Source: an uncultured Verrucomicrobiae bacterium (lineage in GTDB: Bacteria; Verrucomicrobiota; Verrucomicrobiia; Chthoniobacterales; Xiphinematobacteraceae). Taken from it: 64,000 nt of DNA. Below, in pieces: positions 27,312-27,558 of the stretch. The position numbers were made by a program, and so were the translations under genes. Within the stretch, counting starts at the first letter, position 1. Each line of letters starts with the position of its first letter. The stretch lies in assembly GCA_963706715.1 (NCBI GenBank), contig CAVPNI010000004.1:288001-352000 (forward strand). The letters are read 5' to 3'. Below the pieces are notes generated by a model. That model searched no databases. It saw nothing but the letters and a program-made list of their open reading frames with translations, and was not told the DNA's origin.

Positions 27312-27558
27312 TATAGCAAAGCCTGTATAAAATGATTACGCCTTTGCCGCCCTTTTGACTCACTCAGCCCCGCTGAGTCTCGCCCCTTCGGGGCTTGCCT
27401 TCGGCAAGTCTACCCCGGCCGTTCCCACGGCCAGGTGTTGCCTCCAAGCTTTGTTGCAAAAAATAGTCCGTATCTACAGATATGGCCTCTTTTTTGCGTC
27501 TTGCCTGGAGCCAAAATTTCAGTCAAATCCATGATCATTTTATACGGGCCTTGCTATA
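27312..27558 (+). mobile_element. MITE family A (247 bp) with hairpin module 27358-27440
   Basis: TIRs TATAGCAAAGCCTGTATAAAATGAT / ATCATTTTATACGGGCCTTGCTATA. Confidence 0.92.

What the first reader, a model, noticed from the sequence alone, without database searches (positions are those of the whole stretch)
27358..27440. 83-bp four-hairpin module that appears to move independently inside family A MITEs
Seen: the module is absent from two copies (22208-22371, 28283-28447). It sits after ...CTTTTG in three copies (about 16601-16693, 17071-17153, 27358-27440). In a sixth copy it sits at a different backbone site in the opposite orientation (45554-45636), bracketed by TTTG...TTTG, versus TTTG...TTG at 27358. 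A single inversion cannot give the order L-X-Y-M'-R from L-X-M-Y-R. The four stems are kept through compensatory changes. H1: CTCAGC/GCTGAG versus CTTGGC/GCCAAG. H2: cUUCGg loop versus GUGA loop. H3: CTTGCC-TTCG-GCAAG, CTGCC-TTCG-GCAG, CTGTCCGGC-AAA-GCCGGACAG. H4: CCGT/ACGG versus CTGT/ACAG. Known: UNCG/GNRA loops and covariation indicate selected RNA or ssDNA structure, and TIR-less hairpin-ended elements next to a short fixed motif typify HUH systems (IS200/IS605, IS91, REP/RAYT). Inference: an undescribed structured mini-element or ncRNA that rides on a MITE.
Basis: partly seen in the sequence, partly recalled or inferred. Interest (0 to 1): 0.82.

Follow-up and report, generated by a model that had tools for sequence, protein, structure and literature searches.

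The report
Mobile four-hairpin element hitchhiking on MITEs
An 80-base, gene-less piece of hairpin DNA has jumped into this bacterium's miniature transposons and been multiplied by them; it is a free-moving relative of the unexplained repeats next to tRNA genes in E. coli, and it appears to insert into single-stranded DNA at replication forks using an enzyme not yet identified.

Summary
An 82-93 bp four-hairpin insert occupies IS630-derived MITEs at two opposed sites: 65 full copies at site 1 and 7 at site 2, of 87 genome hits. It also occurs at a third MITE site, as a solo copy and beside a tRNA. One identical backbone occurs 15 times filled and 9 times empty. Empty sites keep one TT.

The element is not local. 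A covariance model finds it in 24 of 40 genomes (host plus 39 relatives), inside repeats, transposase genes, itself and tRNA T-loops. In E. coli K-12 its 7 non-training hits of 11 are all tRNA-linked repeats (TLRs).

The folded strand is the purine-rich reverse strand (GNA triloops, tandem G·A), not a UNCG RNA. Free copies put that strand on the G-rich strand, the inferred lagging-strand template (19 of 20 regions in G041); MITE-carried copies do not (38 vs 31). This points to a non-autonomous single-stranded-DNA element, probably HUH-moved. No partner enzyme was found.

Verdict: a mobile form of the TLR core, not described as mobile in the papers found (9 searches). Earlier scan notes reached the same link.

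The parts
27357..27439 (-). Module, type A (83 bp). Placement can slide 27355-27437 to 27358-27440 because TTG overlaps. The folded strand is the reverse, purine-rich one.
   Evidence: filled/empty comparison; CM hit 27355-27439 (-), 76.9 bits
27412..27438 (-). H4, first hairpin on the folded strand: GGGA loop, bulged base, A·G mismatch. Its outermost pair (27412 with 27438) is the element end.
   Evidence: fold; terminal pair G-C 31, A-T 14, C-G 2, mismatched 3 of 50 parsed, out of 124 modules
27394..27408 (-). H3, C-GAA-G triloop hairpin, length-variable in the family; preceded on the folded strand by GGTAG
27382..27394 (-). H2, C-GAA-G triloop hairpin; the most sequence-conserved part, shared with the E. 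coli rtt inserts
27362..27378 (-). H1 (loop GGG here, GGGA in 76 of 83 parsed modules; tandem G·A in most relatives), followed on the folded strand by the conserved GAGTC-AA end
27312..27558 (+). Host MITE, filled at site 1; 35-bp TIRs 27312-27346 and 27524-27558, shared with an 885-bp IS630-like element elsewhere in the genome
17072..17154 (+). Module type A in MITE 16953-17199 (-)
16600..16692 (-). Module type C (93 bp) at site 1 of MITE 16555-16811, another backbone subfamily
45553..45634 (-). Module type B (82 bp) at site 2, just inside the other TIR and opposite in orientation relative to the backbone, in MITE 45519-45764
22208..22371 (+). Empty MITE, same backbone as 27312
28283..28447 (+). 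Empty MITE of a diverged backbone

Best explanation
The module is a non-autonomous mobile element of about 80 nt, homologous to the hairpin core of E. coli tRNA-linked repeats. Shown: it inserts and is lost precisely at an N-T|S junction (mostly TT|C or TT|G), adding no target duplication beyond the shared T/TT. It lands mostly in tolerant DNA (MITEs, short repeats, REPs, transposase genes, tRNA 3' copies, itself). In this genome a few insertions into an IS630-type MITE were multiplied to about 80 copies by the MITE. Inferred: the purine-rich strand folds into four hairpins when exposed as the lagging-strand template. An enzyme supplied in trans recognises the folded ends, cuts and rejoins that one strand, and moves a single-stranded circle to another fork, as IS200/IS605 and REP/TnpA-REP systems do. 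An HUH (Y1-type) transposase is the most likely enzyme. My odds: TLR-core homology and independent mobility about 0.9; single-stranded DNA, replication-coupled mechanism about 0.65; HUH enzyme about 0.45.
For: Mobility: identical backbone 15 filled / 9 empty; 3 precise empties inside the filled C clade; 17 state changes on the backbone tree against a minimum of 3, only 7 of 57 branches well supported. Three MITE sites, one solo copy and one tRNA-linked copy in the genome. Unrelated targets, tandem arrays and nesting in relatives; two inserts in an rve transposase ORF; six in one integrase + Y2 element. Homology: R1, trained without E. coli, gave the 4 rtt inserts as its only non-self hits in 67 kb (E 0.023-0.082). 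A verrucomicrobial copy's top blastn hits among plasmid records were Klebsiella records that the rtt query also hit (6 of 13 records, E 0.05-0.6). R2 found 7 further E. coli hits, all in tRNA-linked repeats, the serX ones starting with the same TTGACTCGC. Structure: 86.6% of cells paired against 57.3% shuffled, 20 of 20 pairs with double-sided changes. Strand bias: purine strand on the G-rich strand in 19 of 20 G041 regions and 22 of 23 sites, including 7/7 convergent and 4/4 divergent gene gaps; 51 vs 15 in loci of other genomes (24 flat); 38 vs 31 for MITE-carried copies in this genome. IS608 and ISDra2 target the lagging-strand template through ssDNA circles (PMC6006769, abstract start); TnpA-REP cuts at dinucleotides near a bulged hairpin (PMC8266576, passages).
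Against: No enzyme. The host genome has no Y1_Tnp and no Zn_Tnp_IS91. Y1 is in 31 of 40 genomes and does not track the module: G039 and G033 have modules without Y1, G010 and G037 have Y1 without modules. Only 1 of 30 Y1 loci, 0 of 19 integrase and 0 of 2 IS110 loci and 0 of 30 IS91 loci carry a clear module. Tandem-array junctions read GGTG-TT-GAC even in subtypes whose free right end is GGTG-CT, which a simple one-strand cut does not predict. Strand bias could partly reflect strand-biased target repeats; sites within a genome and related genomes are not independent; G-rich = leading is inferred. A2 was fitted to the structure, RNAalifold found no consensus on the plain MAFFT alignment, and two relatives' copies fold no better than shuffles (z -0.9 to -1.6). 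The E. coli matches to R1 are weak. Modules A, B and C are about as diverged (78-81%) as their backbones (71-74%), so the site-1 insertion may be old and single, with later losses.
Confidence: 0.6

Rival explanations
1. Same element, but moved by a tyrosine recombinase that works on folded single-stranded DNA (integron-integrase-like, IS91-linked integrase, or host Xer), with a 1-2 nt crossover core.
For: Frequent insertion at the tRNA T-loop, a known tyrosine-integrase subsite (PMC4383910, passages). Bulged base and strand-specific folding resemble attC (recalled). All 6 G023 matches lie in one integrase + Y2 element within an attC-like array. A staggered 2-nt core could explain TT at array junctions.
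Against: No RYYYAAC inverse core (recalled attC definition; alignment). 0 of 19 SAM_4 integrase loci and 0 of 30 IS91 loci carry a clear module. CT was never seen on the left in 73 junctions (TT 59, AT 6, TG 4, TC 2, GT 2), which free resolution of a heteroduplex core might be expected to give.
Confidence: 0.2
2. A structured RNA module (as RtT is annotated) spread through an RNA intermediate or kept for an RNA function; the MITE copies are passengers.
For: TLRs lie in tRNA and rRNA operons and three rRNA-linked TLRs bind Hfq and CsrA (PMC8144298, passages). GGGA and GCAA loops and tandem G·A also occur in RNA. In tRNA-linked copies the folded strand is the sense strand.
Against: Orientation follows GC skew where transcription cannot set it (11 of 11 convergent or divergent gaps). 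In the G007 and G023 transposase genes the folded strand is mostly antisense. C-GNA-G triloops are a DNA-type motif (recalled). No Rfam family at gathering score.
Confidence: 0.1
3. No dedicated enzyme: copies arise by template switching or gene conversion at forks stalled by the hairpins, and are lost by slippage between the flanking TT.
For: No partner gene found. MITE copies are mosaic and show deletions between modules. Slippage on a hairpin-rich lagging template would give precise loss and strand bias.
Against: Dozens of unrelated targets with the same two end points and only 1-2 nt of homology. End sequences and the terminal pair are conserved across the family.
Confidence: 0.07
4. A miniature derivative of an IS110/IS1111 element (2-nt core, no duplication, known to target TIRs and REPs).
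For: Dinucleotide bracket, and insertion next to TIRs and into REPs; the genome has 9 IS110 copies.
Against: The resident IS110's ends and targets are unrelated to the module (no CM hit in L001, L002). Targets share no 7-9 nt guide-matched sequence. Left and right dinucleotides often differ (TT...CT, AT...CT).
Confidence: 0.05

Closest known systems
E. coli tRNA-linked repeats (TLRs), including the RtT/rttR repeats of tyrT-tyrV (Egan and Landy 1978 and Rudd 1999 as cited in PMC8144298; originals not read; Rfam number RF00391 recalled and seen in scan notes)
   Same: Same four-hairpin core, same TT-GACTC start in the serX repeats, same insertion at T|C of the T-loop; one such tRNA-linked copy exists in this genome (G000:C2:621672-621755).
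   Different: TLRs are described as fixed repeats ending in an 18-19 bp copy of the tRNA/rRNA 3' end, with no known function. Here the core is free, sits in MITEs and many non-tRNA targets, and is gained and lost precisely. No Rfam match at gathering score.
IS200/IS605 family and their non-autonomous derivatives
   Same: No TIR, hairpins at both ends, strand-specific structure, precise loss, lagging-strand-template bias; the folded strand ends in TCAA-like letters (IS608 right end TCAA, recalled).
   Different: No 4-5 nt target motif (only NT|S), four packed hairpins in 80 nt, no cognate TnpA found.
REP/BIME with TnpA-REP (RAYT)
   Same: Short gene-less hairpin DNA, dinucleotide-scale specificity, bulged stem, tandem arrays, GTAG before H3 in the window copies (PMC8266576, passages).
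   Different: GTAG is not conserved (GCAG, ATAG, GGAG, GAAG). It moves as one oriented four-hairpin unit, not as inverted REP pairs. It does not flank RAYT genes except as an insert in one RAYT's own repeats (L169).
IS630-derived MITEs (the host)
   Same: The backbone has 35-bp TIRs shared with an 885-bp IS630-like element and TA ends.
   Different: The module itself has no TIRs and is not a MITE.

Membership tests
tRNA-linked repeats (TLR/RtT) | Homologous four-hairpin core | tested here: met
tRNA-linked repeats (TLR/RtT) | Lies downstream of a tRNA/rRNA gene and ends in a copy of its 3' end | tested here: not met
   window copies are in MITEs; only G000:C2:621672 is tRNA-linked, with a decayed end copy
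tRNA-linked repeats (TLR/RtT) | Match to an Rfam family at gathering score | tested here: not met
   0 matches in the window; only sub-threshold chance hits
IS200/IS605 non-autonomous element | Subterminal hairpins on one strand, no TIR, no real target duplication | tested here: met
IS200/IS605 non-autonomous element | Conserved tetra/pentanucleotide target | tested here: not met
   flanks vary beyond NT|S
IS200/IS605 non-autonomous element | Bias for the lagging-strand template | tested here: met
   (GC skew as proxy; target bias not excluded)
IS200/IS605 non-autonomous element | Cognate TnpA element with the same ends | tested here: not met
   none in own genome; none among 30 of 44 Y1 matches from 5 module-rich genomes
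REP/RAYT | Conserved GTAG/GGAG 5' of the hairpin | tested here: inconclusive
   GTAG before H3 in window types A and C, variable in the family
REP/RAYT | Copies flank a RAYT gene as inverted pairs | tested here: not met
   1 of 30 Y1 loci, there inserted inside other repeats
REP/RAYT | Cleavage by a TnpA-REP in vitro | not testable with these tools
   needs biochemistry
IS91/ISCR | Ends or copies associated with Y2 transposase elements; GTTC/CTTG target (recalled) | tested here: not met
   6 inserts in one element but 0 clear hits in 30 other, mostly intact loci; targets not fixed
IS110/IS1111 | Ends shared with a DEDD recombinase element; matched 2-nt core plus guide-matched target | tested here: not met
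Integron attC | RYYYAAC...GTTRRRY inverted cores on one long hairpin (recalled) | tested here: not met
   alignment and folds
MITE | TIRs shared with an autonomous IS (host backbone, not the module) | tested here: met
   885-bp IS630-like copies with the same TIR

The most novel reading that the evidence does not exclude
A class of its own: gene-less single-stranded-DNA mini-transposons of about 80 nt, spanning at least Verrucomicrobiota and enterobacteria, that parasitise other mobile elements, that created the tRNA-linked repeats of E. coli, and that are moved at replication forks by an enzyme not yet tied to any known IS or REP family, possibly a host enzyme.
Probability: 0.4. Interest if true: 0.88.

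Novelty: new variant of a known kind. Interest (0 to 1): 0.72.

Why it matters
E. coli's tRNA-linked repeats have been known since 1978 without a function (PMC8144298). Reading their core as a mobile element makes their origin testable in K-12. The data here add ends mapped to 1-2 bases, identical filled and empty alleles, an orientation rule tied to replication with a built-in negative control (MITE-carried copies), and a case of one parasite amplified about 80-fold by another. If the enzyme is found, an 80-nt element that needs only a T-containing junction would be among the smallest insertion substrates known to me.

Tried and rejected
Rfam: nothing at gathering; Thr_leader, IMES-2 and a 15-nt Acido-Lenti-1 match are sub-threshold.
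Y2_Tnp search of the own genome was uninformative because the controls were silent.
Resident IS110 as partner: rejected. The 4-copy primase/integrase element has no module-like sequence in its shared 3.2 kb as read by eye; its true left end was not reached.
All-against-all comparison of 3013 ORFs beside 109 module loci: no recurring mobility gene among the 40 largest clusters.
Co-distribution with Y1_Tnp (31/40), Phage_int_SAM_4 (36/40) or Zn_Tnp_IS91 (4/40; 57/401): none.
Viral contigs: 2 pattern hits, both chance. Phage records: no match to the rtt insert.
RNAalifold on the MAFFT alignment: no structure.
Joining the flanks gave no second tRNA call at L248 or G000:C2.
Sequencing runs: no RNA holder listed.
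Single inversion or misassembly for site 2: rejected. TIR-guided conversion of site 1 into site 2 was considered; it needs two switches on 2-3 nt of homology and is not excluded.
Literature searches found no paper describing the TLR core as mobile. Only listings and selected passages were seen; Rudd 1999 and Egan and Landy 1978 were not read, subscription journals are largely missing, and no supplements were read.

Full report
1. The observation. The six MITE copies and four inserts are at the stated places. The host is a 164-165 bp element with 35-bp TIRs. Five 885-886 bp copies with the same TIRs encode an IS630-like transposase (family assigned from the DDE motifs by my knowledge), so the backbone is an IS630-derived MITE. 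Profile search of the whole 3.04-Mb genome gave 87 module hits: site 1, 65 full and 4 partial; site 2, 7 full and 8 partial; 1 full solo copy; 2 partial elsewhere. The covariance model added a diverged copy at a third MITE site (C3:267742-267834) and one beside tRNA-Ser(TGA) (C2:621672-621755) (85 hits from 150 of 490 candidates scored). Several partial copies are hybrids of a site-1 and a site-2 module, which implies MITEs loaded at both sites.

2. Gain and loss. Of 133 TIR pairs, 112 were 150-300 bp and 108 could be classed: 49 empty, 30 type C, 26 type A, 3 type B (4 skipped). One backbone is letter-identical in 15 filled and 9 empty copies. Three empty C backbones sit inside the filled C clade and keep a clean TT. 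The tree needs 17 state changes against a minimum of 3, but only 7 of 57 branches are well supported and copies are mosaic, so the number is soft. Modules (78-81% identical) and backbones (71-74%) are about equally diverged. Site 1 may therefore be one old insertion with repeated precise losses; site 2, site 3, the solo copy and the tRNA-linked copy need further events. Independent soil runs contain the filled form and the form lacking exactly 83 bases.

3. A wide family. A pattern scan of genome contigs returned 86 loci, nearly all titled Verrucomicrobiota or unclassified bacteria, one Blastochloris. Model R2 hits 24 of 40 genomes (host plus 39 relatives). Locus identity between searches places G026, of the host's order, in Terrimicrobiaceae. 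Targets are short genomic repeats, REP-like repeats beside a Y1 gene (L169), an rve transposase ORF with two in-frame inserts (L258), an RHS core (L333), tRNA 3' copies, the module itself, and tandem arrays of period 87. All six matches of G023 lie in one 2.9-kb integrase + Y2 element in an attC-like array, with insert lengths 79, 81, 86, 79, 79 and 73, mostly frameshifting.

4. The junction. With no TT in the query, the two bases before the module were TT 59, AT 6, TG 4, TC 2, GT 2 of 73, and the odd ones follow the host repeat. In the transposase ORF the empty site reads as a Phe codon, so TT belongs to the target (the family consensus is recalled). The right end is GGTG-N-T, where N pairs with the foot of H4: G-C 31, A-T 14, C-G 2, mismatched 3 of 50 parsed. 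So the element brings its own end and shares one T, often TT, with the target. Unexplained: array junctions seen read TT even for subtypes ending in CT.

5. Which strand folds. The window copies fold far better than shuffles on both strands (z -3.4 to -4.6); the purine-rich strand is slightly more stable in 5 of 5 pairs; two relatives' copies do not beat shuffles. H2 and H3 close three-base loops, GAA on the purine strand. Among 83 of 124 modules parsed, H2 reads C-GNA-G in 69 and H1 has GGGA in 76. H1 and H4 carry tandem G·A on that strand, which are C·T on the other. C-GNA-G is a DNA mini-hairpin motif (recalled). For H2 alone the sequence cannot tell GNA from UNCG, as they are reverse complements. 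On the model-fitted alignment of 50 sequences, 86.6% of cells pair against 57.3% shuffled and 34-43% for slid controls, and all 20 pairs show double-sided changes. The alignment leans to the structure, and RNAalifold found nothing on the unfitted one.

6. Orientation follows replication. In G041 (54 pattern matches; GC skew 0.12-0.33) the purine strand lies on the G-rich strand in 19 of 20 regions. That strand holds about two thirds of the coding bases by a crude gene caller, as expected for the leading strand. By site it is 22 of 23, including all 7 convergent and 4 divergent gaps. In 3-5 kb loci of other genomes it is 55 vs 15 with 24 flat, or 51 vs 15 after removing four G041 loci. MITE-carried copies in the host, which a DDE transposase should place at random, split 38 vs 31 with 18 flat, though this genome's skew is weak. 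The leading-strand sequence is the lagging-strand template, which IS608 and ISDra2 target (PMC6006769, abstract start). Caveats: non-independence, and target repeats may be strand-biased themselves.

7. Link to E. coli. A recalled resemblance was tested. The tyrT repeats hold an insert at TT|CGAACC relative to the intact tRNA. R1, built from Verrucomicrobiota only, hit the four inserts and nothing else foreign in 67 kb (E 0.023-0.082). A verrucomicrobial copy independently pulled Klebsiella records that the rtt query also hit. R2, which includes the four rtt copies, found 7 more of 11 hits in K-12, all beside tRNA genes (serX three times, tRNA-Pro, Lys/Val clusters three times; E 0.008-0.04). 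These are the tRNA-linked repeats: 22 in K-12, no known function (PMC8144298, passages). A mobilome study saw raised coverage of the tyrT/rttR region under stress without explaining it (10.1101/2024.07.17.603846, passages). I reached this link before reading the scan's earlier notes, three of which say the same; they are not independent evidence.

8. The enzyme was not found. See the Against line and Tried and rejected. The G023 cluster recalls RAYT subclass 2.4, whose REPs insert into their own gene (PMC6006769, passage), but 30 other IS91 loci, mostly intact and possibly from module-free genomes, carry none.

9. Verdict. It works like an IS200/REP-type single-stranded element but fails membership of those families. 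It is the mobile core of a known, unexplained repeat family. Nine literature searches found no description of it as mobile; passages were also read in PMC3184786, PMC4383910, PMC2864571, PMC8266576 and 10.64898/2026.10.21.760802, and no supplements. Novelty: new variant of a known kind. Interest 0.72.

Noticed in passing
window 9487-9573, 16837-16942, 18452-18558: A second repeat family of about 110-120 bp; a copy is also inserted inside a family-A MITE (G000:C1:510788-511084).
   Followed up: no
window 16491-16564, 24000-24055, 33216-33397, 49609-49791: A third family of inverted-repeat elements with about 50-bp arms.
   Followed up: no
window 5916-5950: Lone family-A TIR without partner.
   Followed up: no
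window 17223-19957, 26289-27269: dnaN and dnaA, and a Xer-type tyrosine recombinase gene just upstream of the 27312 MITE; two filled MITEs lie just downstream of dnaN.
   Followed up: no
window 56637-56734: ARAGORN calls a 98-nt tRNA-Ala inside a 1125-codon TamB-like ORF; probably a false call.
   Followed up: no
G000:C2:302959-303433, C1:657419-659067, C3:634190-635806: Family-A MITEs also carry other passengers: an insert of about 217 bp in the central palindrome, an ISL3-like and an IS4-like transposase (families by my reading).
   Followed up: partly
G000:C1:112672 and 8 other places (L001-L005): Nine IS110 copies in two forms, four lacking about 200 bp of the left non-coding end, inserted in short AGTT-containing repeats.
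   Followed up: partly
G000:C1:11025, C3:757700, C3:959766, C3:967593: Four near-identical copies of an element over 3.2 kb with an ATPase/primase-like ORF and a tyrosine recombinase.
   Followed up: partly
L248:1360-1590: A full-length duplicate of tRNA-Ser(TGA) with two different hairpin inserts, one in the D-loop and this module in the T-loop, next to the intact gene.
   Followed up: partly
L294, L296, L300, L292 (G164): A shortened variant of about 63 nt sits inverted to a full module inside a larger dispersed repeat.
   Followed up: partly
L272:255-285, L322, L279-L282: tRNA-linked copies in Verrucomicrobiota and E. coli share an extra TTCTCATCC segment beyond the module, suggesting a longer tRNA-targeting form.
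   Followed up: partly
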